In this document: one piece after another, positions 15,669 through 29,023 of the stretch
Layout: every line of letters begins with the position of its first letter
Position numbering within the stretch: the first letter of the stretch is position 1
Assembly: GCA_964291405.2 (NCBI GenBank)
Contig: OZ219926.1
Span: 3,456,001-3,520,000 of the forward strand
DNA from: Thermodesulfobacteriota bacterium
Lineage (GTDB): Bacteria > Desulfobacterota > Binatia > Bin18
DNA: 64,000 nucleotides
Direction of reading: 5' to 3'
Program-made: the position numbers and the translations under genes
The notes under the pieces: generated by a model
The model's database searches: none
The model's input: the letters and a program-made list of their open reading frames with translations, nothing else
Told to the model about the DNA's origin: nothing

Positions 15669-15683
15669 CGAGATGGTCCCTTC

Positions 15684-15758
15684 CGTCATTCCGGCGAAAG
15701 CCGGAACCCAGGTCTCGACTTCAGCCTCTGGATGTCGGATCACGCCCGGGGCATGACG
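15684..15758. repeat. Degenerate GTCATTCCGGCGAAAGCCGGAA-type palindromic REP-like element between convergent genes
   Basis: CGTCATTCCGGCGAAAGCCGGAACCCAG...CTGGATGTCGG...GCATGACG, with terminal inverted CGTCAT/ATGACG. Confidence 0.6.
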
Positions 15759-15784
15759 AGAGCGGAACGGCACGCCTACAACCG

Positions 15785-16663
15785 TCACTCATGCACATAT
15801 GAAGGCTGGTTGAGATTCCAGTCGTACTCGTAGTCCACTGACCCGGCAAAGTCCTTGAGACGGGCCGCGAGTCCTGCCTCGGCGTACTGGATGAGGTGGG
15901 CCAGCACGGACGTTTGGTTACCGCCGAAGTCCTCCACATACCAGTCATAGATGCTCGAAATCACCAGGAAGTCGTCGTCCACGAAATCCACTCCGCGCGG
16001 ATGATTGACATAGGCGCGCGCACCAGCGTCAAGCAGTTCCTCGGTGTTGGCCGCGGTAAAGACCGTTGGCGACTGATTCGGGCAGCCGTAGCTGGCACAG
16101 TTCACGGCGTAGTGGATCCGGTTGTCGCGCCAGATGGGCCGCAGGATGCCGTGTTCGATATTGTTGAGCGTCAACTCCTGGCCGGCGACCTGAGCGTGGA
16201 CGTCGTCCCAGGGGCCGGATAAGGGGATCCAACTCTCGTGGATGCCGCGGATGGAATCCACGGGATAGGCGTTGACGACGACCTGCACGGTGAGCGCGTT
16301 ATAGAAGTTGATCCAGTAGGCTTTCTGTTCGGCCCTGGCATAGGCTCGCGGATCGTGGGCCTGCAAATGCGCCAGGTAACCGGCCAGCTTGGCCCTATCC
16401 TCGTCGCTGGCCTTGAGCGCGGCATAGTCGAAGCGGTTGACGCCCGACGGGTGAGAACTGAGGTAGGTGGTCAGGAGATTCTGCCAGGCGCTGTGATCGA
16501 TGGTTGCGGTATTGGTCTCGTCGCTCGTGTCCCAGACCTCGAGCAGGGCCGATGAAGGTGCGGCCAGGACGAAGCTGGGAACGACGAGTAGGGCCGTTAC
16601 GACCAGACCCAGTACCAGCCGACCGTGATAGATCGCCCGTTCAGTGGGGTGGAGCTGCTTCAT
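15785..16663 (-). CDS. DUF547 domain-containing exported protein
   Basis: AYWINFYNALT, LTLNNIEHGILR, IHYAVNCASYGCP, YDWNLN. Confidence 0.9.
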   Translation of the reverse strand: MKQLHPTERAIYHGRLVLGLVVTALLVVPSFVLAAPSSALLEVWDTSDETNTATIDHSAWQNLLTTYLSSHPSGVNRFDYAALKASDEDRAKLAGYLAHLQAHDPRAYARAEQKAYWINFYNALTVQVVVNAYPVDSIRGIHESWIPLSGPWDDVHAQVAGQELTLNNIEHGILRPIWRDNRIHYAVNCASYGCPNQSPTVFTAANTEELLDAGARAYVNHPRGVDFVDDDFLVISSIYDWYVEDFGGNQTSVLAHLIQYAEAGLAARLKDFAGSVDYEYDWNLNQPSYVHE

Positions 16664-17005
16664 AGTTAGTTCTCTCCTCAACACTCATGTACTATCTGAT
16701 TCTTTGCAGAACGAAAGGCCCGTGACCAGGGCCGGTGGGCTGACTGTGCGCCTGTATCCTACGCATCCGCCAATACTGACAAGGGGGGCTTGCACTCTCT
16801 CTCAGATTCGCATTATATTGCGCAATTATTAAATTATACAGTCTGTATGCATGGAAAATAGTCAAATAGAGCCTTGTACTCATTTCCAGTCCACATTATG
16901 GTCGTCAACAGGATTCTTCATTATCCCCCATCCTTCGATTCTCCGAAGCCTATCCTGCCCCTCAGGTCTATAGAAACGCACAACACTTTTATAGGAGGAA
17001 ACCAT

Positions 17006-17374
17006 ATGAAAGCGGTAATCGGTATAGTGGCCCTCGTTGTTCTCGGAGCCCTGTGGCAGGTGTCCGCGTCCGCATCGGGCTCCATTTCGATAGGCGGCGG
17101 CATAAGCCCCCGAGACGCGTACACGCAGGGCAAGAAGCTCACCTTCAAGAAGCTTGTATGCTCCTCCTGCCCAATCCAGCGGGGCGAGCTGGACCAAACT
17201 CGGGCTCAGAGCCTGAAGAACAGCCTTGAGGCGCGCGATGCGGAAACCAAGCCGGGCACGCCGGACGACGAACATATCCAGTTGCTGTGTCCGGGCAGCC
17301 AGGGGACTGATTGCGGTAGTGTGGACGAACAGGAACTCGTCCATTATTACCTGACCCGCCGCTACAAGCTGTAA
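17006..17374 (+). CDS. Small exported protein with CxxCP motif, possible cytochrome-c-like fold
   Basis: AGGAGG SD, signal peptide MKAVIGIVALVVLGALWQVSASA, YTQGKKLTFKKLVCSSCP, EQELVHYYL. Confidence 0.7.
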   Translation: MKAVIGIVALVVLGALWQVSASASGSISIGGGISPRDAYTQGKKLTFKKLVCSSCPIQRGELDQTRAQSLKNSLEARDAETKPGTPDDEHIQLLCPGSQGTDCGSVDEQELVHYYLTRRYKL

Positions 17375-17441
17375 CTGTTTGATCCTGCGGTCACGCCACG
17401 CGCCTTAGCCGTCTTACCGACGAAGTAGAGAGGTCTATATT

Positions 17442-18344
17442 ATGCGACTAGCCTGTATTCCGGCCTTTGTTATAGCAACTTTGGCCATTTTTCTTTTTAC
17501 TGCTGCACCAGCACGCGCGGGTTCGCCCTGGCTCCCCGCACCAGGGGCCGGAGACGTCAACCTGTCTTACACCTACCAGACTGCGGACGAATTTTATCGC
17601 AACACCACAAAAGTCCCGACACCAGGAAACGTCGGAGAAGATCTCGTACAGCACACGACGTATGTAGAAGCGCGCTACGGATTGTTGGATAACCTCGCCC
17701 TAGACGGTCGTATCGGCTATGCGCAAGGCCACTATAGCTTCGACCCTTCCCGCGGCGCAGGCGCGATCAGTGAGAAGAGTCCTGACGGTTTGGCCGATGT
17801 GAACCTGGGCATCACCTATCGTCTCCTTGACGAGACGATCACCGAGAGCCCACTACTACCCACTCTCGCCATACGTTTCGGCGGGATCATCGCCGGAGAC
17901 TACGAGAGCGGCGACATCAATTCGATTGGTGATGGCGGTGACGGGTTTGAGGTCTCAGGCATGGCAGGTAAGTTTATCGGCGATATGTTCGTTCTGTCCT
18001 CGGAGTTCGGATACCGTAACCGCACCAACGATATACCGGACAATCTCTTTTTGAACCTGTCCGGTGGGATCATCCTTTTCAACCGCGTAAGCCTGAACAT
18101 CAGCTACTATCGCGTTGACACCCCGTGGTCCAGCTTCGACATTGGCGACCCCGGCTTCTCTCCGATCGGAAATGTTTTTCCCGAACTGAAAGAGGAGATG
18201 GAACTCATCGGTGGCGGATTCAATGTTGCGGTCACGGACAGCATTAACCTCGGGTTTCAGTATGCGTCGGTCATCGAGGGCCGGAATACCGCGGCGTCCG
18301 ATGTTTTCAGTGTATCGCTCGGCTACTCGTTTGACGCCTATTGA
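17442..18344 (+). CDS. Outer-membrane beta-barrel protein (putative transporter)
   Basis: Signal peptide, alternating beta-strand pattern, C-terminal VSLGYSF. Confidence 0.7.
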   Translation: MRLACIPAFVIATLAIFLFTAAPARAGSPWLPAPGAGDVNLSYTYQTADEFYRNTTKVPTPGNVGEDLVQHTTYVEARYGLLDNLALDGRIGYAQGHYSFDPSRGAGAISEKSPDGLADVNLGITYRLLDETITESPLLPTLAIRFGGIIAGDYESGDINSIGDGGDGFEVSGMAGKFIGDMFVLSSEFGYRNRTNDIPDNLFLNLSGGIILFNRVSLNISYYRVDTPWSSFDIGDPGFSPIGNVFPELKEEMELIGGGFNVAVTDSINLGFQYASVIEGRNTAASDVFSVSLGYSFDAY

Positions 18345-18418
18345 TCCTTCCTATTCCACCTGATGAGCTTGCTTGAGGCCTGCTGCAAGACGTGACGGAA
18401 GGGAAGTCATGGGATACG

Positions 18419-18943
18419 ATGACTGAAATACGGCTTCCCCATAATTCTCATTCGGTGGACCACCGCTTCGGCGTCTCTTTGGAGCATCTGACCCGGACGG
18501 TCGCGATGGCAGGCGGCCTGCTACTGATCGGGGTCATGGCGATGACCGTGATCAGTGTTCTCGGACGCTATCTCTTCAATGCGCCGATCCCAGGCGATTA
18601 CGAGATGACCGAGCTTGCCTGTGGGATCGCCGTGTTTGCCTTCTTCCCCTATGGCCACCTGAAGAACGCCAACATCGTTGTTGAGTTCTTCACCGCTCGA
18701 CTGCATCCGCGTCTCAAGACGGCGTTGGACACGGTGCACAGTTTCGCCTTTACGGTGGTCTCAGGTCTCGTCGCTTGGCGCCTCTTCGTCGGTGGAATGC
18801 ACAAACTGAGGGATGGCGAGACCACACTGTTTCTCGCCATCCCGATCCATTGGGGTTACTTCCTGGCGCTACTGGGAGCAGGATTGTTGACCGCGGTCTG
18901 CGTCTGGGTGTTCTCCCGTCATCTGCACGCACTCAGGCAATGA
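18419..18943 (+). CDS. dctQ: TRAP transporter small permease
   Basis: SVLGRYLFNAPIPGDYEMTE; four TM segments; overlaps dctM start (ATGA). Confidence 0.88.
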   Translation: MTEIRLPHNSHSVDHRFGVSLEHLTRTVAMAGGLLLIGVMAMTVISVLGRYLFNAPIPGDYEMTELACGIAVFAFFPYGHLKNANIVVEFFTARLHPRLKTALDTVHSFAFTVVSGLVAWRLFVGGMHKLRDGETTLFLAIPIHWGYFLALLGAGLLTAVCVWVFSRHLHALRQ

Positions 18944-20256
18944 CCAATATCGAGTTCGGCGGGCTCTTGTTCGGCATCTGCGTGGTGTTGATCGCTTTCC
19001 GGATGCCCGTTGGGGTCGCAATGTTCGTGGTCGGCGGTTTCGGCTTCGCCTCGTTGGCGGGATGGTCGGCGTTTCTCAACCTCCTCAACACTGCCCCGTT
19101 CAGTCGGGTGTCGAGCTATACCCTTTCGGTGCTGCCGCTATTCCTGCTGATGGGTCAGTTTGCGACCCGGGCGGGGCTCACCCGCTCGCTGTTCACAGCA
19201 GCTCGCGCGTGGGTGGGACACTATCGCGGCGGGCTCGCCATCTCGACTATCTGTGGATGTGCGGCGTTCGGGGCTGTCTGTGGCTCGTCGATCGCGACCG
19301 GAGCGACGATGGCCTCGGTGGCGCTGCCCGAGATGAAACGCTCCGGCTATTCCGGGGCGCTGGCTACCGGTACGCTGGCCGGCGGCGGTACGCTCGGTAT
19401 TCTGATCCCTCCTTCGATCATCCTGGTGATCTACGCGATCATTACCGAACAGTCGGTCGGCAAGCTGTTTCTCGCCGCGCTCATCCCCGGTCTCATCACG
19501 GTGCTTGGTTATTCGATCGCGATCAGCCTGTATGTCCGGCTCAAGCCCGAATCGGCCCCGGTCGCGCCGGCCGTGCCGTTCAGTGAACGCGTGCGCAGCC
19601 TGGGCGCGGTGCTGCCGGTCGCGGCGATCTTTCTGCTGGTCATCGGCGGCATCTATCTCGGCGTGTTCACCCCGACCGAGGGCGCTGCCATCGGGGCTGC
19701 GGCCACCGCCTTGGTCGCCGTTGCCTCTGGCCGGATGAGTTGGGCGAGCCTTGTATCGAGTCTGCTCGATACCGCGCAAGCCACCGCGATGGTCTTCATT
19801 ATTTTAATTGGTGCCGATATCTACAGCGCCTTTCTCGCGCTGTCCCAGATTCCGGTCGAACTGGCGGACGCGCTCACGACATCGGGACTGGCGCCAATGC
19901 CGATCCTGATCGGTATTTTGGTCGTCTATTTGCTCCTCGGCTGCGTGATGGACAGCATGGCCATGATCCTTCTCACAGTGCCGGTATTCTTCCCGCTGGT
20001 CACCGGGCTTGATTTCGGCTTCACCGAGGAGGAGATGGCGCTCTGGTTCGGAATTCTGACGCTGATCGTCGTCGAGATCGGGCTGATCACCCCGCCGATC
20101 GGCCTCAACGTCTACATTATCAATTCGCTGGCCGAGGGCGTCCGACTTGGCGAATCGTTCCGGGGCATCGTCCCGTTCCTGCTGAGCGACTTTGTCCGAG
20201 TCGCGATCATTCTGGCCCTGCCCGCAACCTGCCTCTGGCTCCCGGGGTTGCTCTAG
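18940..20256 (+). CDS. dctM: TRAP transporter large permease
   Basis: LPLFLLMG, GTLGILIPPS, GVFTPTEG, GLITPPIGLNV. Confidence 0.93.
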   Translation: MTNIEFGGLLFGICVVLIAFRMPVGVAMFVVGGFGFASLAGWSAFLNLLNTAPFSRVSSYTLSVLPLFLLMGQFATRAGLTRSLFTAARAWVGHYRGGLAISTICGCAAFGAVCGSSIATGATMASVALPEMKRSGYSGALATGTLAGGGTLGILIPPSIILVIYAIITEQSVGKLFLAALIPGLITVLGYSIAISLYVRLKPESAPVAPAVPFSERVRSLGAVLPVAAIFLLVIGGIYLGVFTPTEGAAIGAAATALVAVASGRMSWASLVSSLLDTAQATAMVFIILIGADIYSAFLALSQIPVELADALTTSGLAPMPILIGILVVYLLLGCVMDSMAMILLTVPVFFPLVTGLDFGFTEEEMALWFGILTLIVVEIGLITPPIGLNVYIINSLAEGVRLGESFRGIVPFLLSDFVRVAIILALPATCLWLPGLL

Positions 20257-21290
20257 TCGCTATACTTAGCGACCAAGCGCCTCGCATCAGCGATCAGAGC
20301 CTGTCCATCATACCCCATAGCGCTGACCTTCTCGATCCAGCTATCAACAACCGTCTGGGTCACCCTCTCCCAGCGCGCCCTCTCCACTTCGGAGAGCGAC
20401 AGAATCGGATCGTCTCGCTTGACCGCAATGGCGCGACCCGGCTTCTCGTCGTCCTTCCATATCCGTCCGAGTCGTTTGGACAATGCCATCCCCGTGCTGT
20501 CGTCGATTATGGCTCTGATATCCTGCGGGAGCTGATCGTAGCGCTGTTTGTTCATTGTCATCACGAACACGGCGCAGGAGAGGAAGACCTCAGTGTGGTA
20601 TTTCGTCACTTCGTGCAGGCGGAGGGGGCGCAGGATGGTCCAAGGCATCCAGGTTCCGTCGACCACGCCCAGGGACAGCGCTTCATAGACTTTGGGGGCC
20701 GGCATACCGACCGGGATGGCGCCGAGCGCCCTGAGCATAGCCGCGCTAGCCTGCGATGGGACGCGCATCTTCAACCCCTTGAGGTCCTCCAAGGTGCGAA
20801 CCTGTTTCCCGGTGGTGTGGAGGTGGCTGCGTGCGGTGGTATGAAAGACCAACGGTTGAGTGTCCTTATATTCGTCCCGCATCCACTTCCGATAGAACTC
20901 GGTCAATGCTTGGCTGGTCGCTACTGCGTCGCCGGCAACGGAAGGCAGTTCGAATATCTCCGTCAGCGGAAAACGCCCCGGCGAGTAGCCGGGCAGGGTC
21001 CAGACAATATCAACCACCCCGTCACGCGCTTGGCCATAGAGATCAGACGGCTTGCCGCCGAGCTGCATGGCCGGAAACACTTGGATCTCGACTCGATTCT
21101 CGGACCTCTCCTCAATTGCCTGAGCCCAGGGCTGTATGAACAACCGATAGGCGATCGCCTTAGGCGCGCTGAAAGTGTGCAGCCGAAGCGTGATCTGCTC
21201 CGCGTATACACTGCTCGAAGGCGTGCAGACTATGCCCGCGCAGAGCGCGGCAAATGTCGCCCATCCCGTGACCCCTCGGAGCATAGTCAT
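20253..21290 (-). CDS. dctP: TRAP transporter substrate-binding protein, convergent with dctQM
   Basis: Signal peptide, VFPAMQLGG, DGVVDIVWTLPGYSPGRFP, LEDLKGLKMR. Confidence 0.9.
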   Translation of the reverse strand: MTMLRGVTGWATFAALCAGIVCTPSSSVYAEQITLRLHTFSAPKAIAYRLFIQPWAQAIEERSENRVEIQVFPAMQLGGKPSDLYGQARDGVVDIVWTLPGYSPGRFPLTEIFELPSVAGDAVATSQALTEFYRKWMRDEYKDTQPLVFHTTARSHLHTTGKQVRTLEDLKGLKMRVPSQASAAMLRALGAIPVGMPAPKVYEALSLGVVDGTWMPWTILRPLRLHEVTKYHTEVFLSCAVFVMTMNKQRYDQLPQDIRAIIDDSTGMALSKRLGRIWKDDEKPGRAIAVKRDDPILSLSEVERARWERVTQTVVDSWIEKVSAMGYDGQALIADARRLVAKYSD

Positions 21291-21686
21291 CTGTTCCCTT
21301 TCTGATATTGACCTGAATGAATATCGGCTCTGTAGAGGATGTTCGTGAACTCTCCTGCCCACGCTTTGGCTGATCGCGGCTGTTTGAGCATGAGCTGCGT
21401 TATTGCGAGATACATAAAGGTCTCAGAGGTGACAGACAAGCGCAGTACGCCCTGGAGATATCGGCGTCCCCGAGTGACAAGCCGCCCCCGCGCATACGTG
21501 TTGTCCGCTCAGATCAACACCAACTGCCCGAAGCGATCGTTGAAAGGGCACAAACGCGGTGCTAGGCTCCTAGGCCATGCCATCGAGAGGAGATGTTCCT
21601 ATCGTTGCATTCCTCCGCACTAAGCCCAATATAACAACATCGGCCCGCAATGGCCGCCTCGTCCGCTGGAACATAAGGGGGCTGGT

Positions 21687-23435
21687 ATGAGTACCCACGC
21701 GTCCAAGCCTGGTTCCAGCATTCGCTACCAGCCCGACGAGAAACTTCCGGCGGCGCTTGCCCTCGGCCTCGCTCTGCAACTCGCCGCTCTCCTTTTGCCC
21801 GGTATCGTGCTGATTCCGACGACCATGTTCCAGGCCGTCGGCGCGACCGATGTCTTCCTGTTGTGGGCCGTATCTGCCTCCGTCATAGCCTGTGGTGTCA
21901 CCACGCTGCTGCAAGCGGTTCGGGTCGGCCCGGTCGGTGCAGGCTATATCCTGACGACAGGACCACCCGGAATCGCTATCGCGGTCAGCGCCATGGCGGT
22001 CGCCGCGGGCGGTCCGGCCTTGCTCGCCACCATGGTCTTCATCATGGCTCTCTTCCAGTTTGTGTTCTCCGCGCGTCTTTCGCTGTTCCGGCGGCTCCTG
22101 ACTCCGACCATCACGGGAACGGTGTTCATGCTGACGCCGGTTACGGTCATGCCGATTATCTTCAATCAGTTGAAGAACGTGCCGGACGGAACCCCGGCAT
22201 TGGCCGCTCCTCTGAGTGCTCTGGCGACCCTCCTCGTCGCTGTTGGCATCATGCTGAAGGCGACGGGGTCGCTGCGCCTCTGGGCGCCGGGCATCGGTAT
22301 TGCCGCCGGCTCAGCGATCGCCGGGGTTTTCGGTCTCTACGACATCGACCGCGTCGCTGAGGCTTCGTGGATTGGCCTCCCGAGGGCCGAATGGCCGGGC
22401 TTCGATCTCAACTTCGGGACGGCTTTCTGGGGGCTTCTTCCGGCGTTTCTGTTCATCGCCCTGCTCTGCACGGTCCAAACGATCAGCAGTGCCGTTTCCA
22501 TTCAGCGCCTATCCTGGCGTCAGCCCCGGGCGGTGGATTTCCGAGCGGTGCAAGGGGCGGTAGCCGCAGACGGCGTCGGCAATCTCCTGTCCGGCCTCGC
22601 GGGAACAATGCCGAACGGGTTCCGTCCGACGGGCGCGGCGATGGCTGAGCTGACCGGAATCAACTCCCCCAGTGTCGGAGTCGTCCTCGGGGCATTGCTC
22701 ATCACGCTCGCCTTCCTGCCGAAAGTGCTCGCCGTATTTCTGGCGATACCGAGCCCGGTTATCGCCGCTTTTATTACCATAACGATGGCAACGATTTTCA
22801 TCCTGGGTATAAAGGTCGTCGTTCAGGATGGGCTCGACTATCGCAGGGGCTTAATCGTCGGCGTCGCGTTCTGGCTTGGAGTCGGCTTTCAGAATGGCGT
22901 GATATTTCCCGAGTATGTATTGGAGTTCGCGGGAGGTCTGCTGCGGAACGGGATGATAGCCGGCGGCCTCGTCGCCATTGTCGTGACCCTCTTCGTGGAG
23001 CTGACGAAGCCGCGCCGCAGTCGGCTTGAGGTGGAGTTCGGCCTCTCGGCCCTGCAGAAGATCAGAGATTTTCTCGGCGTATTCGCGTCCCGCAACGGTT
23101 GGGACACAACCATGGCGGACCGCCTCGACGCCGTCGGCGAGGAGGCGTTGCTGACGCTCCTCGGGCAAGATGAAGCTGAAGAAGAGCGTCAGCGGCGGCG
23201 CTTGCTCCTGGTTGCGCATAAAGAAGACGGTGCGGCGATCCTCGAATTCGTCGCCTCGATGGGCGATGAGAACCTTCAGGATCAGATCGCGTTGCTCAGC
23301 GAGCAGCCCGCCGAAGATTTGATCGAGCGGGAAGTCTCACTTCGGCTATTGCGGCACCTCGCGTCCTCGGTTCGTCATCAACAATACCATGACGTTGACA
23401 TCGTGACCGTTCGTGTGGCAAGTCCAGACGGGTAG
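21687..23435 (+). CDS. NCS2 (xanthine/uracil) permease with ~140-aa soluble C-terminal extension
   Basis: IRYQPDEKLP..LALQ N-terminus, AVAADGVGNLLSGLAG, FLPKVLAVFLAIPSPV. Confidence 0.85.
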   Translation: MSTHASKPGSSIRYQPDEKLPAALALGLALQLAALLLPGIVLIPTTMFQAVGATDVFLLWAVSASVIACGVTTLLQAVRVGPVGAGYILTTGPPGIAIAVSAMAVAAGGPALLATMVFIMALFQFVFSARLSLFRRLLTPTITGTVFMLTPVTVMPIIFNQLKNVPDGTPALAAPLSALATLLVAVGIMLKATGSLRLWAPGIGIAAGSAIAGVFGLYDIDRVAEASWIGLPRAEWPGFDLNFGTAFWGLLPAFLFIALLCTVQTISSAVSIQRLSWRQPRAVDFRAVQGAVAADGVGNLLSGLAGTMPNGFRPTGAAMAELTGINSPSVGVVLGALLITLAFLPKVLAVFLAIPSPVIAAFITITMATIFILGIKVVVQDGLDYRRGLIVGVAFWLGVGFQNGVIFPEYVLEFAGGLLRNGMIAGGLVAIVVTLFVELTKPRRSRLEVEFGLSALQKIRDFLGVFASRNGWDTTMADRLDAVGEEALLTLLGQDEAEEERQRRRLLLVAHKEDGAAILEFVASMGDENLQDQIALLSEQPAEDLIEREVSLRLLRHLASSVRHQQYHDVDIVTVRVASPDG

Positions 23436-23468: not shown

Positions 23469-23786
23469 ATGAAGGAGGATACGTTGATGTATTTCGTGAT
23501 TTTCATAACCGACAAACCAGGTGCGGAACAGACGCGGATTGATATGATGGACACCATTCGTACCTATCTGCATGATCACCCTGATCATCCCAGCGTCAGC
23601 CTTCATCACGCCGGCCCGACGCTGGCCGAGAACGGAGAGACCATAAACGGCTCTCTCCTGGTGGTCGAAGCGCCTTCGCTTGAGGCGGTGCGGGCTTTTG
23701 TTGCGGACCATCCTCTCAACAAGGCGGGTCGCCTCGCCGAATGTCAGGTGCGTCAGTGGGACTGGCGGACGGGCTGCCCCACCTAG
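23469..23786 (+). CDS. YciI-family protein
   Basis: FVIFITDKPG, AGPTL..NGSLLVVEA, ADHPLNKAG. Confidence 0.8.
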   Translation: MKEDTLMYFVIFITDKPGAEQTRIDMMDTIRTYLHDHPDHPSVSLHHAGPTLAENGETINGSLLVVEAPSLEAVRAFVADHPLNKAGRLAECQVRQWDWRTGCPT

Positions 23787-23931
23787 GGTCCGGTCATAAC
23801 CAACGCTCCGGGCGGTACTCCGCCGCCCTCCTCAATTCGGCCCTTCTTCTGTAGTGCTGACTTGGAACTGGTGGCTGCAACTACGTCATCCGCCGGTCAG
23901 TATGACTTCCACCGGAGATACGGGGGAATGT

Positions 23932-25263
23932 GTGGAGATCAAAGACCTGATTATCGATGACCGTGAGAGAGGAATTTTCAGGGTCCACAGGTCGACCATG
24001 ACCTCCAGAGATTTGTTTCGGCGGGAACAGGCACGTATCTTCAACCGCTGCTGGATATATCTGGGACACGAGTCGGAAGTGGAAAACCCCGGAGACTACC
24101 GGCGCCGCACAGTAGCGGGCCGCCCGCTTTTCTTTATCCGTGGGAAAGACGGTCAGGTCCGGGTGTTCCTCAATTCCTGTCCCCACCGGGGTGCGTTGAT
24201 CTGCCGCCGCGACGAGGGAAACGCCGAAGTCCTGCGATGCTTCTATCACGCCTGGTCTTTCAACACCTCCGGGGAGTTGATCGGCCTCCCCGGGGAAGAC
24301 GCCTACGGCCCTTCCTTCGACCGGAGCGAACTGAGCCTGAAGGAACCACCGAGGGTCGACAGCTACCGGGGTTTTTACTTCGTGAGTTTCAACCCCGCTG
24401 TCGAAGACCTGCTCTCCTACTTGGCAGGAGCCAGAGACTACCTTGACCTGATCGTGGATCAGGCCGAGGCAGGGATGCAGGTAGTTTCCGGTTCCAACAT
24501 GTACACGATAAAGGCCAACTGGAAGCTCCTGGCCGAAAACAGCCTGGATGGATATCACCTGATCCCGACCCATCGGACTTACGTGGATTATATCGCCGGT
24601 CTGGGGACAGACGACAGCGGGGACACGATGGCGGCCCGCCCCCCCGGCGTAGCGAGAGCCTTGGGCAACGGCCATTGTGTGTCGGAGAACATCGCCCGGA
24701 GCGGCCGCCCCATCGCCCACTGGCACCCCTTATTCGGCGAAGAGGCGCGGGAACCGCTGGCGCGAGTCCGCCGGCGGTTGGTGGGAAAATACGGAGAAGA
24801 GCGCGCCTACCGGATGGCCGATACCTCTCGCAATCTGCTCATCTATCCCAACCTGATCATCCTGGACTTCGTGGCCATCACCATCAGGTATATCGAACCC
24901 CTGGCACCCGACAGCATGGAAGTCACGGCATGGCACTTGGCCCCCAGGGAGGAATCAGGCGCCAGGCTGGTCACCCGACTCGACAGTTTCCTGACGTTCC
25001 TCGGACCGGGCGGCTTTGCCACCCCGGATGATGTGGAAGCCTTGGAATCGTGTCAGACCGGCTTTCGTGCCACCGAAACCGAGTGGTCCGACCTCTCCAG
25101 GGGCATGCTCAAGCCCACCCCGGGAACGGCGGATGAGCTCCAGATGCGAGGATTCTGGCGACAATGGCACGCTCATATGCAAGGTCTGAGCAAGACCGAC
25201 GTACAGGACGGGCTCCCCACCGTCAGGGAAGCCGCGGTGGCTTCCGGATCAGGGGAACGATGA
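23932..25263 (+). CDS. Aromatic ring-hydroxylating dioxygenase alpha subunit (benzoate/p-cumate-like)
   Basis: CPHR...CFYH, NWKLLAENSLDGYHLIPTH, FLGPGGFATPDD; start (GTG) uncertain. Confidence 0.9.
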   Translation: MEIKDLIIDDRERGIFRVHRSTMTSRDLFRREQARIFNRCWIYLGHESEVENPGDYRRRTVAGRPLFFIRGKDGQVRVFLNSCPHRGALICRRDEGNAEVLRCFYHAWSFNTSGELIGLPGEDAYGPSFDRSELSLKEPPRVDSYRGFYFVSFNPAVEDLLSYLAGARDYLDLIVDQAEAGMQVVSGSNMYTIKANWKLLAENSLDGYHLIPTHRTYVDYIAGLGTDDSGDTMAARPPGVARALGNGHCVSENIARSGRPIAHWHPLFGEEAREPLARVRRRLVGKYGEERAYRMADTSRNLLIYPNLIILDFVAITIRYIEPLAPDSMEVTAWHLAPREESGARLVTRLDSFLTFLGPGGFATPDDVEALESCQTGFRATETEWSDLSRGMLKPTPGTADELQMRGFWRQWHAHMQGLSKTDVQDGLPTVREAAVASGSGER

Positions 25264-25754
25264 TGGCCGCTCACCCGCCGACATTGCGCGAACTGGTAGA
25301 GGATTTCCTGTTTCAGGAAGCCGCGATGCTGGATGAATGGCGCCTGGACGACTGGGTCAAGCTTTTTACCGAAGACGCCCGGTACGTGGTCCCCACCACT
25401 GATTTGCCGGAAGGGGACCCCAAACGCGACCTGGTGTTCATCAATGACGACATCACCCGGTTGCACGCCCGGGTGGCGCGGTTAACCAGCCGTCATGCGC
25501 ACCGCGAGTATCCGTGGTCGCGGACCCGCCGGTTTGTTTCCAACGTGCGGGTTGAAGAAAGCAACGATGCCGAGCTGTCGGTCACGGCAAACGTCCTGGT
25601 TTACCGGTTTCGGAGCGGGGAGGGAGCGCCTTACGTTGGCAGCATTGACTATGTCCTGCGGCGGGATGGCGGAGACTTGAGAATAGCCTATCGGCGTGCA
25701 GTGCTGGACTTGGAAGCGCTCTCGTGGCACGGGGCGGTCAGCATCATCTTTTGA
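25260..25754 (+). CDS. Aromatic ring-hydroxylating dioxygenase beta subunit
   Basis: EDFLFQEAAMLDEWRLDDW, EYPWSRTRRFVSNV; ATGA overlap with alpha stop. Confidence 0.9.
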   Translation: MMAAHPPTLRELVEDFLFQEAAMLDEWRLDDWVKLFTEDARYVVPTTDLPEGDPKRDLVFINDDITRLHARVARLTSRHAHREYPWSRTRRFVSNVRVEESNDAELSVTANVLVYRFRSGEGAPYVGSIDYVLRRDGGDLRIAYRRAVLDLEALSWHGAVSIIF

Positions 25755-25860
25755 ACCCCGGGGCAATGTGATTCGTCGAAGCCTACGGGGCCATCAGGAT
25801 GAAGGTTGAATACATAAAAGCAACAAGTATACAATGCACTCAACCCATAGGAGGTGACTC

Positions 25861-26058
25861 ATGGAAGACCCGAAGGTAGGCAAGCTCCGCGAGAAGTTGG
25901 GGCTCTCTGCCAAGGACCAGCAGGAGACGGCAGGTAAGGCGATCAGCCCCAATCTGCGGAAGAAGATCTCCACCGATCCGAAACCAGGGGGGAATTTCCT
26001 TTCCGCGACCACCGATCCGAAATCAGGGGGGAATTTCCTTTCCGCGATTGGCTCGTGA
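25861..26058 (+). CDS. Putative RiPP precursor peptide with two tandem GG-NFLSA cores
   Basis: TAGGAGGT SD 5 nt upstream; charged leader; TDPKPGGNFLSA-T-TDPKSGGNFLSA-IGS; co-oriented with rSAM/SPASM gene. Confidence 0.8.
   Translation: MEDPKVGKLREKLGLSAKDQQETAGKAISPNLRKKISTDPKPGGNFLSATTDPKSGGNFLSAIGS
25970..26047 (+). repeat. In-frame 39-bp tandem duplication encoding the repeated core
   Basis: CCACCGATCCGAAA(C/T)CAGGGGGGAATTTCCTTTCCGCGA x2, single mismatch. Confidence 0.95.
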
Positions 26059-26450
26059 CCGATACGGCGATGCCGCTAAGCAGTCCACGTTAAGCGCGTC
26101 ATCGCCCCCTCCCCGAAGGCGGGCAGCTCTGAGAAGAGCTGCCCCGTGTTGTGACGGGCCGTTATCTCGATTACGGCGTGGGGTGGTCGGTCGGAGTCAT
26201 GACCCAAACATCCGCACTTGTCCCATCGCCTGGAACCGATTAACCTACACTTCCAACGAAGCGCGGTTACTTCCTGGAGACGGACGCCGGCAAGCTGGAG
26301 TACTGTCACGTCGCCGGGGGAGGCCATTGGCTAATCTCAATCGACAAGCGTCGACGACCAGACTATCTCGGCAAAGAGGTCGTTCAAGCACGCCAGCAAC
26401 GTAATGCGAGTTCGACTCTACCAAGGCCAACCATAATACGGGTAACGAGC

Positions 26451-27626
26451 ATGCTTACCGCCACTGACAGAAGAGCAGTGAGTTTCCGCAAGCTCCGAAC
26501 GCTGGAAGTCGTATTGAAGGTCACCGAACGGTGTAACCTGGATTGCGACTATTGCTATTTCTTCAACGCGGGGGACGACAGCTACAAGAATCATGCGGCG
26601 TTTATTTCCAAGGACACGGTCGCGCTGCTCGTGCGGCGGCTTACGGAATTCTCCAAAGAGCGCAAACTTGAACGAATAGCGATTCACCTACATGGCGGCG
26701 AGCCTCTACTCATGTCAAAAGCCCAACTGGACAGCATCTGCGATGAGATTCGATCAAATCTGGCACCTGTTGTCGATCTGTCGATTACCATCCAGACCAA
26801 CGGAATGTTGATTGACCTTGAGTGGATAGAGATTTTTAACAGACACGGCGTCGCGGTGGGTATCAGCCTTGACGGGACGCAGGAGGACAACGACGCCCAT
26901 CGACTCGATCATCGTGGCAGGTCCTCATATCAGGCGACCGTTCGCGGTCTGGAGCTGTGCCAGCGACACCTGAGTCAGCCGCCCGGCGTCTTGGCCGTGA
27001 TTGCCGAGAACTCCGACCCTAAGGCAATCTACGAACACTTCCGACACGGTCTTGGCCTCGGGCGCCTCGACTTTCTCCTCCCCGACCTGAATCACGACAA
27101 CTTCGACGGCGACGCAGAGGCATATGGTGAATTCCTGATCCAGATCTTCGACATGATGGTGAATGACGAGGAGCCCGTCAGTGTCAGAATCATCGATCAT
27201 TTTCTCGCGAGCATCTACGGATACGGAAACTTCCTCTTCGGTGCCGGGCGTGGTGACCCCGAATATCTGCTCATCACCGTTTCGTCCGATGGCGGAGTCG
27301 GGCCTGACGACACCCTGAGATCCACGAAGTTTTGGAGTGGATATGAATACAGGGACTTAAGGAGTTACCGCATTGAGGAGATAATCCACGATCCGTTGTT
27401 TCAAGAATTTGAGCTTGCCAAGAAGACGACCGCATCCGCATGTTCAGGTTGCTGTTGGCGTAATATCTGTGGCAGTGGCCAGCCGGTCCACCGGTATGCG
27501 ACGCGCAATGGATTCGACAACCCGACCGTCTATTGCAAGGGACTGGATGGGTTCTACACCCATGTTTTGAGGTATTTGGCCTTACACGGAGAGCCTTTGG
27601 AGAAGATCAGTGCAAACTTGGTCTGA
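26451..27626 (+). CDS. Radical SAM/SPASM peptide maturase, cyclophane-forming XyeB/FxsB-like
   Basis: LKVTERCNLDCDYCYFF, HGGEPLL, QTNG, GISLDG, DFLLPDLNHD, SSDGGVGPDDTL, CSGCCWRNICGSGQPVHRY..FDNPTVYC. Confidence 0.88.
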   Translation: MLTATDRRAVSFRKLRTLEVVLKVTERCNLDCDYCYFFNAGDDSYKNHAAFISKDTVALLVRRLTEFSKERKLERIAIHLHGGEPLLMSKAQLDSICDEIRSNLAPVVDLSITIQTNGMLIDLEWIEIFNRHGVAVGISLDGTQEDNDAHRLDHRGRSSYQATVRGLELCQRHLSQPPGVLAVIAENSDPKAIYEHFRHGLGLGRLDFLLPDLNHDNFDGDAEAYGEFLIQIFDMMVNDEEPVSVRIIDHFLASIYGYGNFLFGAGRGDPEYLLITVSSDGGVGPDDTLRSTKFWSGYEYRDLRSYRIEEIIHDPLFQEFELAKKTTASACSGCCWRNICGSGQPVHRYATRNGFDNPTVYCKGLDGFYTHVLRYLALHGEPLEKISANLV

Positions 27627-27667
27627 GACGACCGTAATGCGTCGTGGTTGGAAACGCGCATCGACAG

Positions 27668-29023
27668 TCAGGTCTGAGGTCCCTGATCGGTTGGCGGCGC
27701 GCCTTGTTGGCAGATACGCCCGAACACGGGCCAGGCCAGCGCCAGCCCGATCAGTCCGAATTCCAGCAGACGGGCCCAGAGCGGCTGCTGATAGGCTTGC
27801 AACTCGTAGTCGTTCACATTGAGCCCGGTAATATAAGAGATGAGGACGGCCATGGAGGCCGTCCAGGTCCATACGCTGGGAAAGATCGCCGCAAAGGGCA
27901 GCAGCCAGAGCAGATACCACGGATTGATGACCGGAGACGCCGCCAGCAGCACCCCGTAGACCCAGTCGCCGCGCGGAACGGACCGCCCCGCGTCCCGGCA
28001 ATACTGCCAGTAGTACCAGCCACAGAACAGGGCGCAGGCCAGTCCCAAAACGAGCTTGGCCTCAAAGGCCGGCAGCACCAGCGTCAACAGCCCAAAGGCC
28101 GCGGAGTTGAACTCCCACTCTCGGGCGAAGACCAGCAGCGAGTGCAGGTCCGTGCCGCCACCCAGGGCGAACGGCGCGTATAGGGCCGTCAGCGTAGCGC
28201 CGAACAGGACCCAGTGCCGGATTGAGGCGCCGACCAGCACGAACGGCACCAGCACCAGAGCGAATATCTTGGCCCCGCAGGCCAGACCCAGACACACCGC
28301 TGTGCTCTGCCAGCGGTAGTTCCGGGCCAGGACAAGCGCGGCCAGCAGCAGGCCGACGCCGATGCCGTCCGGGTGAGCGGTAAAGGCAATTTCTTTGACC
28401 ACTAGCGGACACCAGGCGTAGAGCATGACGTTCCGCGCCGGCGCCAGGCGTAGCAGCAGGACCACAGTGGCAAGGTCAATGCTAATCAGCAGAACCTGCA
28501 AGGCCGCGATGCTGCCCGGTCGCAGCCAGTAGCCGAGCAGGAAAACGAACTGTGTCGTCGGAGCGTAGATGGTCGGCAACTCGGGATGGTTGATCCCATC
28601 CAGCACGCTGTGAAACGTGGAGGGAACGGTAGGGTCGGTGAAAAACGCTTCCGGGACGGCGGCGTAGGGCGTACCGGCGGTGGCAAAACGATAACCGTCC
28701 CACAGGTAGCGATAGAAGTCGTCTTCAAACAGTGGCCCGCCGACCAGCCCGCAGATTCTGAAGGCTACGGCCCAGAAGAGCAGGCAGTCGAGCGGGAACG
28801 GTTCGTCACGCCGGTGACAGTACAGGAAGAGGCCGAATACCGGCAGGCCGGTCCAGGCCATCAGGATGAAGAAGGCGACCAGGTCGGGTTCACCAAGGGG
28901 ACGTGCCAAAAAGGCGAGGGCGGCGTAGCCCAGGGTACAGCCAAGACCGACCGCGTCCACCAGCCGACGCGTCTCCACGCTCGGTTGCCCACGCGCGTTT
29001 GCGCCGGCTATCGTCTCAAGCAT
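27668..29023 (-). CDS. Membrane glycosyltransferase (GT-C, GT87/DUF2029-like)
   Basis: EDDFYRYLWDG, INHPELPTIYAP, YAWCPLVVKE, SPVINPWYLLW. Confidence 0.8.
   Translation of the reverse strand: MLETIAGANARGQPSVETRRLVDAVGLGCTLGYAALAFLARPLGEPDLVAFFILMAWTGLPVFGLFLYCHRRDEPFPLDCLLFWAVAFRICGLVGGPLFEDDFYRYLWDGYRFATAGTPYAAVPEAFFTDPTVPSTFHSVLDGINHPELPTIYAPTTQFVFLLGYWLRPGSIAALQVLLISIDLATVVLLLRLAPARNVMLYAWCPLVVKEIAFTAHPDGIGVGLLLAALVLARNYRWQSTAVCLGLACGAKIFALVLVPFVLVGASIRHWVLFGATLTALYAPFALGGGTDLHSLLVFAREWEFNSAAFGLLTLVLPAFEAKLVLGLACALFCGWYYWQYCRDAGRSVPRGDWVYGVLLAASPVINPWYLLWLLPFAAIFPSVWTWTASMAVLISYITGLNVNDYELQAYQQPLWARLLEFGLIGLALAWPVFGRICQQGAPPTDQGPQT

What the first reader, a model, noticed from the sequence alone, without database searches (positions are those of the whole stretch)
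25861..27626. Candidate new cyclophane RiPP system: GG-NFLSA precursor plus XyeB/FxsB-like radical SAM/SPASM enzyme
Seen: a 65-aa ORF with a strong SD, a charged leader and two GG-N-F-L-S-A units. It lies 392 bp upstream of a co-oriented rSAM with CxxxCxxC, DFLLPDLNHD, a Cys-free DGxxxPDDTL segment and CxxC-x5-C-GSG-xx-xHRY...FDNPTVYC. Established: this C-terminal pattern is characteristic of three-residue cyclophane-forming enzymes (XyeB, GrrM, FxsB), which crosslink an aromatic residue to residue +2. FxS is a known substrate motif, and XyeA cores follow a GG motif. Inference: Phe-Ser cyclophanes are installed in each FLS. The precursor fits neither the strict FxSxx-COOH pattern (it ends FLSAIGS) nor the Trp-rich Xye cores. 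No peptidase or exporter is adjacent, so it may be an undescribed minimal family. The block looks more AT-rich than its flanks by eye, suggesting acquisition.
Basis: partly seen in the sequence, partly recalled or inferred. Interest (0 to 1): 0.9.

Follow-up and report, generated by a model that had tools for sequence, protein, structure and literature searches.

The report
New Phe-Ser cyclophane peptide gene pair
A small gene for a repeat-bearing peptide sits beside a radical SAM enzyme of the kind that staples an aromatic side chain to a residue two positions on, and the same pair is shared by unrelated bacteria of marine sponges.

Summary
The 65-aa ORF (25861..26058) and the 391-aa radical SAM enzyme (26451..27626) form a real, conserved RiPP pair.

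- **Enzyme:** it belongs to the three-residue-cyclophane (triceptide) class. Its best HMMs are YhhB, XyeB and FxsB, all below their curated cut-offs. The closest solved structure is the triceptide synthase ChlB. It lies in a separate 100/100-supported clade.
- **Precursor:** all 20 orthologous loci (64-99% identity; Binatia, Alpha- and Gammaproteobacteria MAGs) carry a co-oriented upstream peptide. Each has the same leader and 1-4 GGNF[V/I/L]SA units, under purifying selection.
- **Binding:** a complex model with controls supports peptide-enzyme binding.
- **Habitat:** DNA holders of the stretch are labelled sponge metagenome, and RNA-library contigs cover both genes.
- **Acquisition:** within the genus the pair is a 1.84-kb presence/absence unit.

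The "minimal family" idea does not hold family-wide. In 18 of 20 other loci a MicC-like αKG/Fe oxygenase follows the enzyme. An NCS2 permease, a YciI-like protein and a Rieske oxygenase usually lie nearby, and the last three are present in this window.

The Phe-to-Ser Cβ crosslink is inferred, not shown. Verdict: a new family within a known RiPP class.

The parts
25861..26058 (+). Precursor peptide gene, 65 aa. Leader is residues 1-42 (MEDxKxxKLRxKLG..NL..K conserved). Two core units GGNFLSA lie at residues 43-49 (25987-26007) and 56-62 (26026-26046). The two Phe are the only aromatic residues in the peptide.
   Evidence: The same peptide is upstream of the enzyme in 20 of 20 orthologous loci. 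Leader dN/dS 0.10-0.55. 22 DNA versions of 27 units. A profile search of 1.84 billion representatives finds 8 proteins with this leader.
25970..26047 (+). Two tandem 39-bp copies (38 of 39 identical) that create the second core unit: a recent duplication.
   Evidence: Unit number varies from 1 to 4 among loci.
25849..25854 (+). Shine-Dalgarno AGGAGG, 6 nt before the ATG.
   Evidence: A similar GAGGTGAC precedes the start in most loci.
25806..25835 (+). Promoter-like TTGAAT-18-TACAAT. It begins 1 nt inside the left edge of the presence/absence module.
   Evidence: 1 site found against 0.8 expected by chance, so position only. Module edge.
26121..26144 (+). 10-bp GC-rich hairpin (GGGCAGCTCT-GAGA-AGAGCTGCCC) 63 nt after the precursor stop. 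A possible attenuator between precursor and enzyme gene; inferred.
   Evidence: region z-score -3.28; 1 of 200 shuffles folds as well. The terminator scan found none here.
26451..27626 (+). Radical SAM/SPASM-type peptide maturase, 391 aa, triceptide (3-CyFE) class, unnamed clade. Radical SAM cluster Cys at 26532-26555. One auxiliary-cluster motif C331/C334/C340 (27441-27470) plus C362 (27534-27536).
25805..27648 (.). The precursor + enzyme module as a presence/absence unit within the genus. It is present in G000 and G004. In G041 it is replaced by 303 unrelated bases.
23854..25754 (+). Rieske ring-hydroxylating oxygenase alpha (23854..25263) and beta (25164..25754; true start uncertain) genes. 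Within 4 kb of the pair in 13 of 21 loci; 67-82% identical across phyla.
   Evidence: Not found in 5 of 5 genomes of the subclade that lacks it nearby. Absent together with the pair in G023 and G010.
23469..23786 (+). YciI-like protein, 105 aa. Near the pair in 17 of 21 loci.
21687..23435 (+). NCS2 (xanthine/uracil permease family) transporter, 582 aa, with a C-terminal extension of about 140 aa that has no family match. Near the pair in 15 of 21 loci.

Best explanation
This is a working two-gene RiPP module of the triceptide class.

- The 65-aa peptide is the substrate.
- Its conserved leader helix (MEDxKxxKLRxKLG) docks on the C-terminal helices of the radical SAM enzyme, and the core threads into the barrel.
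- The enzyme cleaves SAM, and the 5'-deoxyadenosyl radical abstracts a hydrogen from Ser Cβ (X3).
- The resulting radical adds to the ring of the Phe two residues upstream (Ω1). Re-aromatisation, with the electron leaving through the single auxiliary [4Fe-4S] cluster, gives a Phe-x-Ser three-residue cyclophane.
- This would happen once per GGNF[L/V/I]SA unit, so twice here (-4 Da).

The module belongs to a gene set shared horizontally among sponge-associated Binatia, Alpha- and Gammaproteobacteria. In most carriers a MicC-like αKG/Fe oxygenase follows the enzyme and probably processes the peptide oxidatively at Gly. This lineage lacks that gene, and how the product is released here is unknown.

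Shown: gene pair, conservation, enzyme class, selection, indel status, habitat label. Inferred: binding mode, site and type of crosslink, role of neighbours.
For: Enzyme class
- NCBIfam scores are YhhB 301.6, XyeB 278.3 and FxsB 272.3 bits, against anSME 154.4.
- The closest solved chain is the triceptide synthase ChlB (9gm3, E 5e-55), then anSME at 1.5e-19.
- ChlB shows the same Cys pattern: CxxCx5C-GGG...C and a Cys-free DG segment. anSME carries the extra Cys.

Precursor
- 20 of 20 orthologous loci carry the peptide with the same leader and 1-4 units.
- G43 G44 N45 F46 S48 A49 are invariant.
- Phe is the only aromatic residue in the window's peptide.
- Mean pS is 0.61 against pN 0.21 in the leader.
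- 22 DNA versions encode 27 units.

Binding
- The complex model supports binding but does not show it. Score 0.79, best of 3 controls 0.00.
- That mark was reached by 58 of 80 solved complexes and 2 of 110 mismatched pairs.
- The runs agree in at least 85% of contacts, and the partner's pLDDT is at least 68.
- Leader residues 5-15 lie on enzyme residues 370-391, and core residues 34-51 lie in the barrel.

Chemistry precedent
- A review states that MscB links Phe C4 to Ser Cβ (PMC11002830, passages).
- In minviopeptin a His-Ala-Ser cyclophane to Ser Cβ was shown by NMR (PMC12912966, passages).

Still under selection here
- The enzyme differs from the G004 copy by 9 synonymous and 3 non-synonymous changes (pN/pS 0.10).

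In RNA libraries
- RNA-library contigs of 4 of 4 runs laid (3 studies) cover the precursor and parts of the enzyme gene at 90-99% likeness. One 1331-nt contig spans both genes.
Against: - No chemistry was measured.
- The enzyme is below the curated cut-off of every named cyclophane family, so function is transferred across 31-35% identity.
- The complex pass may reflect likeness to a solved relative (ChlB entries 9gm3/9gmc). It was run with my own alignments and with ligands riding along, which the calibration did not cover.
- RNA-library contigs do not prove transcription. No silent-stretch control could be laid, because the cap is one call.
- This genome lacks the MicC-like partner found in 18 of 20 other loci, and has no C39 peptidase domain. 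No maturation or export route is visible.
- The module has been lost or was never gained in close relatives, so its value to this lineage may be low.
Confidence: 0.72

Rival explanations
1. The pair is real, but the chemistry differs. The enzyme modifies the repeat units in another way than a Phe-to-Ser Cβ cyclophane. Options include oxidation of Ser Cβ (anSME-like), a link involving the invariant Asn, a C-O or C-N link, or side-chain cyclisation of the Val/Leu/Ile at X2 as TvgB does on TVGG repeats.
For: - The enzyme is in an unnamed clade on a long stem (0.92 changes per column) and below all curated cut-offs.
- Asn45 and Ala49 are as invariant as Phe and Ser.
- The TvgABC system also combines a repeat precursor, a radical SAM enzyme of the sulfatase-maturase subfamily and an αKG/Fe enzyme (PMC11002830, passage).
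Against: - The three best HMMs and the best solved structure are all cyclophane formers, with about twice the anSME score.
- X2 varies (V, I, L), while Phe and Ser never vary within GGNFxS-matching units of the 20 loci.
- The unit matches the Ω1-X2-X3 rule, and Phe-x-Ser has precedent.
Confidence: 0.18
2. In this genome the module is a decaying remnant of a larger acquired cluster. It has already lost the MicC-like gene and no longer makes a useful product.
For: - The MicC-like gene is absent here and was not found anywhere in G000 with one query.
- Close relatives show stepwise absence: G041 lacks the pair, while G023 and G010 also lack the Rieske genes.
- One alphaproteobacterial copy of the enzyme gene (L034) is interrupted.
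Against: - Both ORFs are intact.
- The window and G004 copies differ by 9 synonymous against 3 non-synonymous changes.
- The core was recently duplicated in frame.
- RNA-library contigs 90-99% alike cover both genes.
Confidence: 0.1
3. The 65-aa ORF is a chance reading frame, and the enzyme acts on another substrate.
For: The peptide has no family match. Its two units are one DNA duplication.
Against: - 20 of 20 loci conserve it, with synonymous drift.
- 8 representatives in 1.84 billion proteins share the leader.
- The complex score is 0.79 against 0.00 for the best control.
Confidence: 0.02

Closest known systems
Fxs family (FxsB/MscB, TIGR04269): Phe C4 to Ser Cβ triceptides
   Same: The predicted motif is the same (Phe-x-Ser) and the enzyme class is the same. 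A review states that MscB forms the Phe C4-Ser Cβ bond (PMC11002830, passage).
   Different: The enzyme scores 272.3 bits against a cut-off of 370. The carriers are Binatia and Proteobacteria MAGs.
XyeAB (TIGR04496), Xenorhabdus
   Same: Precursor followed by the enzyme, with the core starting after GG (XyeA ...SGGWVNVFARWDKAI). The enzyme is 33% identical.
   Different: 278.3 bits against a cut-off of 450. Xye cores are Trp/Phe motifs without spacers. The Xye locus carries HlyD and a peptidase-domain ABC transporter. No C39 domain was found in this genome.
YhhABC (NF041707)
   Same: It is the best-scoring HMM (301.6 bits). Its layout is precursor, enzyme, then a 2OG/Fe oxygenase, like the layout in 18 of 20 sister loci here. 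True YhhB genes occur in other species of the same genus (489.7 and 475.6 bits).
   Different: The score is below the cut-off of 445. YhhA cores are HNR motifs. The oxygenase of the sister loci is not detectably related to YhhC (hhalign probability 0.07).
Minviopeptin cluster MicABCD (PNAS 2026, PMC12912966)
   Same: It is a triceptide with X3 = Ser next to Gly-Gly. MicC is an αKG/Fe enzyme that cuts the backbone at Gly to leave a C-terminal amide (passages). MicC (9vkm) is the only PDB match of the oxygenase in the sister loci (E 1e-5 with a profile; HxD and distal His aligned).
   Different: The match is distant. Here GG precedes the motif rather than following it. No ADP-ribosyltransferase is present. 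The window itself has no MicC-like gene.
ChlB (PDB 9gm3, 9gmc), triceptide synthase
   Same: It is the closest solved structure (E 5e-55 over residues 21-374), with the same Cys pattern and LLPD motif.
   Different: Its native motif is YDR, as stated in PMC11499958. It is a separate family.
TvgABC poly-cyclopropylglycine system
   Same: Repeat precursor, radical SAM enzyme of the sulfatase-maturase subfamily, αKG/Fe enzyme and transporters (PMC11002830, passage).
   Different: The repeats are TVGG and the chemistry is on Val methyls. Here the branched residue varies (V/I/L) while Phe and Ser are fixed.

Membership tests
Triceptide maturases (3-residue cyclophane forming radical SAM enzymes) | CxxxCxxC radical SAM cluster motif | tested here: met
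   C28, C32 and C35 are invariant in 25 and in 33 aligned homologues.
Triceptide maturases (3-residue cyclophane forming radical SAM enzymes) | C-terminal auxiliary-cluster region of the same type as a validated member | tested here: met
   C331-x2-C334-x5-C340 ... C362 and a Cys-free DG segment align with the same features of ChlB. anSME has additional Cys. The Pfam SPASM model itself scores 16.7, below its cut-off of 21.5.
Triceptide maturases (3-residue cyclophane forming radical SAM enzymes) | Closer in sequence to validated cyclophane formers than to other radical SAM/SPASM classes | tested here: met
   YhhB 301.6, XyeB 278.3 and FxsB 272.3 bits against anSME 154.4, DynA 125.6 and HxsB 74.5. 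ChlB E 5e-55 against anSME 1.5e-19.
Triceptide maturases (3-residue cyclophane forming radical SAM enzymes) | Adjacent precursor with aromatic-X-X (Ω1-X2-X3) motifs | tested here: met
   F-[L/V/I]-S in every unit of 20 of 20 loci and the window. The definition comes from PMC11499958.
Triceptide maturases (3-residue cyclophane forming radical SAM enzymes) | Aromatic carbon to Cβ bond, -2 Da per motif | not testable with these tools
   Needs co-expression, MS/MS and NMR.
XyeB (TIGR04496) | Score at or above the curated cut-off of 450 bits | tested here: not met
   278.3 bits.
YhhB (NF041707) | Score at or above the curated cut-off of 445 bits | tested here: not met
   301.6 bits. Same-genus paralogues L005 and L007 pass with 489.7 and 475.6, so the model works in this lineage.
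FxsB family (TIGR04269) | Score at or above the curated cut-off of 370 bits | tested here: not met
   272.3 bits.
FxsB family (TIGR04269) | Precursor ending in FxSxx-COOH (pattern recalled, not taken from a call) | tested here: not met
   The window peptide ends FLSAIGS and has an internal unit. Other loci end ...APPVTD...ATKS and so on. The peptide hits no NCBIfam model.
GrrM/OscB (TIGR04261) | Score at or above the curated cut-off of 310 bits | tested here: not met
   116.6 bits.
Anaerobic sulfatase maturase (TIGR03942) | Score at or above 349.45 bits, and both auxiliary clusters' Cys | tested here: not met
   154.4 bits. The Cys that anSME has in the DG segment and after CxxCx5C are absent.
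Triceptide clusters with a MicC-like αKG/Fe oxygenase | [quoted passage not shown] | tested here: not met
   There is none after the enzyme in the window, L015 or L021. One is present in 18 of 20 other loci. It was not found in G000 with the L025 protein as query (one query only).

The most novel reading that the evidence does not exclude
The pair is the core of a horizontally mobile, multi-enzyme pathway of sponge symbionts. Each GGNF[V/I/L]SA unit would be stapled, then excised without any protease by the MicC-like oxygenase cutting at the Gly-Gly that precedes every unit. That would release several short amide-ended cyclophane peptides per precursor.

In lineages that keep the Rieske oxygenase, YciI-like and NCS2-permease genes, the ring would be oxidised further and the product trafficked. 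The result would be a small host-facing or cofactor-like metabolite rather than a classical bacteriocin.

The within-genus series (full pair; Rieske genes only; neither) would then be a natural knock-out set.
Probability: 0.15. Interest if true: 0.75.

Novelty: new member of a known kind. Interest (0 to 1): 0.52.

Why it matters
- **New family.** This adds a precursor family and an enzyme clade to the triceptides that no curated model covers (NCBIfam release 20.0 and Pfam). My text searches found it in no paper: the motif strings gave 2 unrelated papers, and 'triceptide' + 'sponge' gave 4 papers, none about such a system by title or abstract.
- **Caveat on novelty.** The triceptide landscape paper (JACS 2022) is not held and supplements are closed. 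Uncharacterised nodes of this clade may already sit in its network.
- **Ecology.** The same expressed-looking gene set is shared at 59-82% protein identity for four of its five proteins (44-52% for the YciI-like one) between Binatia and two proteobacterial classes. DNA runs holding the stretch are labelled sponge metagenome. This points to a function selected in the sponge holobiont and to a possible bacterial source of a sponge peptide.
- **Enzymology.** It offers a multi-core Phe-x-Ser substrate with natural X2 variation (V, I, L), 1-4 copies, and paired lineages with and without the MicC-like enzyme.

Tried and rejected
- **RNA genes.** The intergenic stretch near 26400-26430 looked like a tRNA 3' end by eye. 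ARAGORN found no tRNA or tmRNA in the window, Rfam found nothing, and the stretch is not conserved in G004. Dropped.
- **Terminator and promoter scans.** No terminator-like site lies between the two genes. The single promoter-like site is no more than chance gives (1 found, 0.8 expected).
- **Structure of the MicC-like protein.** The model built from 11 sequences had mean pLDDT 49.7, so no fold search was made.
- **Scans that gave no answer.** The metagenome-contig scan failed three times because the machine did not answer. The precursors of the nearest outgroup (37-42% identity) therefore remain unseen.
- **Closed or unavailable sources.** The JACS 2022 triceptide landscape paper is not held.
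- **Rieske oxygenase as an obligatory partner.** Rejected. It was not found in 5 of 5 genomes of the subclade that lacks it nearby (E <= 1e-40; completeness not given).
- **Double-glycine leader cleavage by a C39 ABC transporter.** No PF03412 match in G000 (97.5% complete), while 7 of 14 control genomes matched.
- **Nearby peptidase or exporter.** No peptidase or ABC exporter among 8 further ORFs within about 12 kb.
- **RNA contigs.** Contig depth and the uncovered stretch 26198-26389 in three runs carry no weight.
- **YhhC.** No detectable relation to the MicC-like protein.
Full report
**Observation**

- A 65-aa ORF lies at 25861..26058 on the + strand, behind AGGAGG (25849-25854).
- Its translation is MEDPKVGKLREKLGLSAKDQQETAGKAISPNLRKKISTDPKPGGNFLSATTDPKSGGNFLSAIGS.
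- 392 bp downstream is a co-oriented 391-aa ORF (26451..27626).
- That ORF carries C28-x3-C32-x2-C35, DFLLPDLNHD, a Cys-free SSDGGVGPDDTL segment, C331-x2-C334-x5-C340-GSG, HRY and FDNPTVYC.
- GC is 0.54-0.58 across the pair against 0.60-0.64 on either side.
- The two GGNFLSA units are a 39-bp tandem repeat identical at 38 of 39 positions, so here they are one recent duplication.
- The two Phe are the only aromatic residues in the peptide.
- Both genes are single-copy in the 4.95-Mb genome.
- No tRNA or Rfam family lies in the window.

**The enzyme**

- NCBIfam ranks three cyclophane-forming maturases first: YhhB 301.6 bits (cut-off 445), XyeB 278.3 (450) and FxsB 272.3 (370).
- Further down are the anaerobic sulfatase maturase at 154.4 (349), GrrM/OscB at 116.6 (310) and HxsB at 74.5.
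- Pfam sees the Radical_SAM domain. The SPASM model scores below its threshold.
- The closest solved chain is the triceptide synthase ChlB (9gm3, E 5e-55 over residues 21-374). anSME follows at 1.5e-19.
- In the printed alignments ChlB shares the LLPD motif, the Cys-free DG segment and CxxCx5C-GGG...C. anSME has extra Cys in both places.
- In 25 homologues spanning 37-77% identity, only C28, C32, C35, C331, C334, C340 and C362 are invariant Cys.
- The enzyme therefore seems to carry the radical SAM cluster and one auxiliary cluster, as ChlB's sequence suggests. This is an inference from sequence.

**A distinct clade**

- Among 5.8 billion clustered proteins, 59 clusters are 64-98% identical to the enzyme. 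Identity then drops to 42% or less (120 of 967 hits listed).
- Seven of those more distant proteins also fall below every curated cut-off, scoring best on XyeB at 273.6-335.7 bits.
- Two same-genus/order paralogues (L005, L007) pass the YhhB cut-off (489.7 and 475.6 bits). They are a different family.
- The tree had 41 rows: the window, 19 loci, 18 of the 61 listed distant homologues and 3 YhhB paralogues.
- Rows dropped from the tree: L034, because the gene is interrupted, and L008 and L009, because my cut was on the wrong strand.
- In that tree the window's clade has 100/100 support on a stem of 0.92 changes per column.
- Annotated XyeB and YhhB genes on plasmids are 33% and 35% identical.

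**The precursor**

- A scan of one genome per species returned 23 loci. Twenty encode a 64-99% identical enzyme. The other three are weak partial matches to unrelated radical SAM genes.
- The record titles name MAGs of Candidatus Binatia (1), Alphaproteobacteria/Rhodospirillales (5) and Gammaproteobacteria/Pseudomonadales (14).
- In 20 of 20 loci a co-oriented ORF lies 73-1121 bp upstream. It has the leader MEDxKxxKLRxKLGIS..DQ..GK...NLxKKxS and 1-4 units GGNF[V/I/L]SA, usually followed by PP or PS. One locus, L020, is cut by a run of N.
- Invariant positions are M1 E2 D3 L9 R10 K12 L13 G14 N31 L32 K35 and G43 G44 N45 F46 S48 A49.
- Over leader codons 1-37, eight representatives give mean pS 0.61 against pN 0.21. 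dN/dS is 0.10-0.55 in the 22 of 28 pairs that were not saturated.
- The 27 units of 10 loci are written in 22 different DNA versions.
- A profile of the 20 peptides, run against 1.84 billion representatives, finds 13 proteins at E <= 0.001 and 8 at E <= 1e-10.
- Of those 8, five are normal precursors. Variants include one GGNLVS unit and one GGHFVS unit.
- The other three keep the leader but run into an out-of-frame core, which looks like frameshifted gene calls.
- The family is therefore small and tied to this enzyme clade.
- The peptide matches no Pfam or NCBIfam model.

**Binding model**

- The job used the enzyme (alignment of 33), the first 52 residues of the precursor (alignment of 19 rows as used), SAM and two 4Fe-4S clusters. 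The model supports binding; it does not show it.
- Score 0.79; best of 3 controls 0.00. That mark was reached by 58 of 80 solved complexes and 2 of 110 mismatched pairs.
- The runs agree in at least 85% of contacts, and the partner's pLDDT is at least 68.
- The tightest contacts put leader residues 5-15 on enzyme residues 370-391 and C335. N31/L32 lie on residues 237 and 252. Residues 34-51 run along barrel residues.
- Caveats: my own alignments and the ligands are outside the calibration, and a relative (ChlB) has been solved, so likeness may drive the pass.

**Likely chemistry**

- Triceptides are defined by an aromatic-to-Cβ link on Ω1-X2-X3 motifs (PMC11499958, whole text read).
- A review states that MscB links Phe C4 to Ser Cβ (PMC11002830, passages).
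- In minviopeptin a His-Ala-Ser cyclophane to Ser Cβ was shown by NMR (PMC12912966, passages).
- Here F and S are fixed, X2 varies, and F is the only aromatic residue.
- A Phe-x-Ser cyclophane per unit is therefore the best-supported reading. It is inferred, not shown.

**Neighbours: not a minimal family**

All-against-all comparison of ORFs covered 21 loci (the window plus 20, with 4-kb flanks). It gives the following.
- A protein of about 236 aa lies directly after the enzyme in 18 of 20 other loci. It is absent in the window, the Binatia locus L015 and L021.
- A YciI-like protein is present in 17 of 21 loci.
- An NCS2-family permease is present in 15 of 21.
- Rieske oxygenase alpha and beta subunits are present in 13 of 21.
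- These genes appear in at least four different gene orders.

The window has the permease (21687..23435), the YciI-like gene (23469..23786) and the Rieske genes (23854..25754) directly upstream.

The 236-aa protein has no Pfam or NCBIfam match.
- It has invariant H124-x-D126 and H213.
- A language-model search gave a lead to Kdo hydroxylase at 0.86, below the 0.9 mark.
- Its only PDB match is MicC, the αKG non-heme-iron oxygenase of the minviopeptin cluster. E is 0.002 with one sequence and 1e-5 with a profile, with the HxD and distal His aligned.
- MicC cuts the peptide backbone at the Gly after the Ser-containing cyclophane and leaves a C-terminal amide (PMC12912966, passages).
- It is not detectably related to YhhC, although the Yhh locus has the same three-gene layout.
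- It was not found in this genome with one query.
- Its structure model was too poor to use.

Other neighbour checks.
- The Rieske alpha subunit was not found in 5 of 5 genomes of the gammaproteobacterial subclade that lacks it nearby, so it is not obligatory.
- This genome has no C39 peptidase domain, while controls matched in 7 of 14 genomes.
- There is no peptidase or ABC exporter among the 8 further ORFs scanned.

**Acquisition**

- The window's proteins are 64-81% (enzyme), 73-82% and 67-78% (Rieske alpha, beta), 59-68% (permease) and 44-52% (YciI-like) identical to those of the proteobacterial loci.
- Among 24 other genomes of the genus drawn, only G004 has the orthologue (99%). Five others have a 32-35% identical relative; the two of these that were scored (L005, L006) behave as YhhB-type.

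DNA comparison across flanking genes shows three states.
- G004 has everything.
- G041 matches the window up to 25804 and again from 27649. It keeps the Rieske genes but has 303 unrelated bases in place of the pair.
- G023 and G010 jump from about 23786/23862 to about 27687/27673, and so lack both the Rieske genes and the pair.

The left edge of the pair's module falls 1 nt before a TTGAAT-18-TACAAT promoter-like site (not above chance on its own). Whether the states arose by stepwise loss or stepwise gain cannot be told from these data. Between the window and G004 the enzyme gene differs by 9 synonymous and 3 non-synonymous changes.

**Habitat and RNA**

- Of 20 public runs holding part of the stretch (12 studies), 14 hold half or more of its sampled words.
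- Four of these, from three studies, are labelled sponge metagenome. The others carry coded organism names.
- Four RNA-library runs (3 studies) were laid. All four have contigs 90-99% alike over the precursor ORF and over parts of the enzyme gene.
- In one run a 1331-nt contig spans both genes, with a different spacer.
- These are contigs. They show presence in RNA libraries, not proven transcription, level or strand.

**Comparison with what is known, and verdict**

- By class this is a triceptide system. By family it is none of XyeB, YhhB, FxsB or GrrM/OscB, since a defining score was tested and not met for each.
- The predicted bond (Phe to Ser Cβ) and the enzyme-plus-αKG-oxygenase layout both have precedents.
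- New elements are the precursor family, the enzyme clade, the multi-core GGNFxSA design, and the cross-phylum spread with DNA holders of the window's stretch labelled sponge metagenome.
- I rate it a new member of a known kind, of moderate interest.
- A bolder but unproven reading is that the wider conserved gene set forms one pathway.

Noticed in passing
L005-L010 (G011, G001, G025, G019, G002, G006): Other species of the same genus/order carry a different cyclophane maturase. L005 and L007 pass the YhhB cut-off (489.7 and 475.6 bits). The lineage therefore hosts at least two triceptide families in different genomes.
   Followed up: partly
L034:3923-5174: The orthologous enzyme gene of one alphaproteobacterial MAG is split into two ORFs (first stop after 108 aa from the match start). 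This is either a broken gene or an assembly error.
   Followed up: no
P0128, P0129, P0130: Three precursor representatives keep the leader but continue as GRQFRLCA-like text. That is what the GGNFVSA unit looks like when read out of frame. They are probably frameshifted gene calls in assemblies.
   Followed up: no
window 27668-29023 (-): A 451-aa membrane protein without a Pfam match lies directly downstream. Its matches in G041, G007, G015 and G011 each contain one in-frame TAG, and in G010 it is in three pieces.
   Followed up: no
window 26205-26420 vs L041: The spacer between precursor and enzyme differs between the two Binatia genomes: about 216 bases are replaced by about 153 unrelated ones. 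An RNA-library contig carries yet another spacer (249 skipped, 113 between). The spacer is the fastest-changing part of the module.
   Followed up: partly
G000:C3:4148772-4149317 (L002): A second radical SAM gene in the genome is 32% identical over residues 19-198 of the query (E 6.5e-10). Its open frame is 497 aa.
   Followed up: no
window 13677-21362: Upstream neighbours are hydantoinase B/oxoprolinase, DUF547, an outer-membrane beta-barrel protein, and TRAP transporter DctM and DctP components. The DctP gene is present in only 7 of 28 genomes of the genus.
   Followed up: no
window 21687-23435: The NCS2-family permease has about 140 extra C-terminal residues beyond the permease domain (Pfam match ends at residue 401 of 582). 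These residues have no family match.
   Followed up: no
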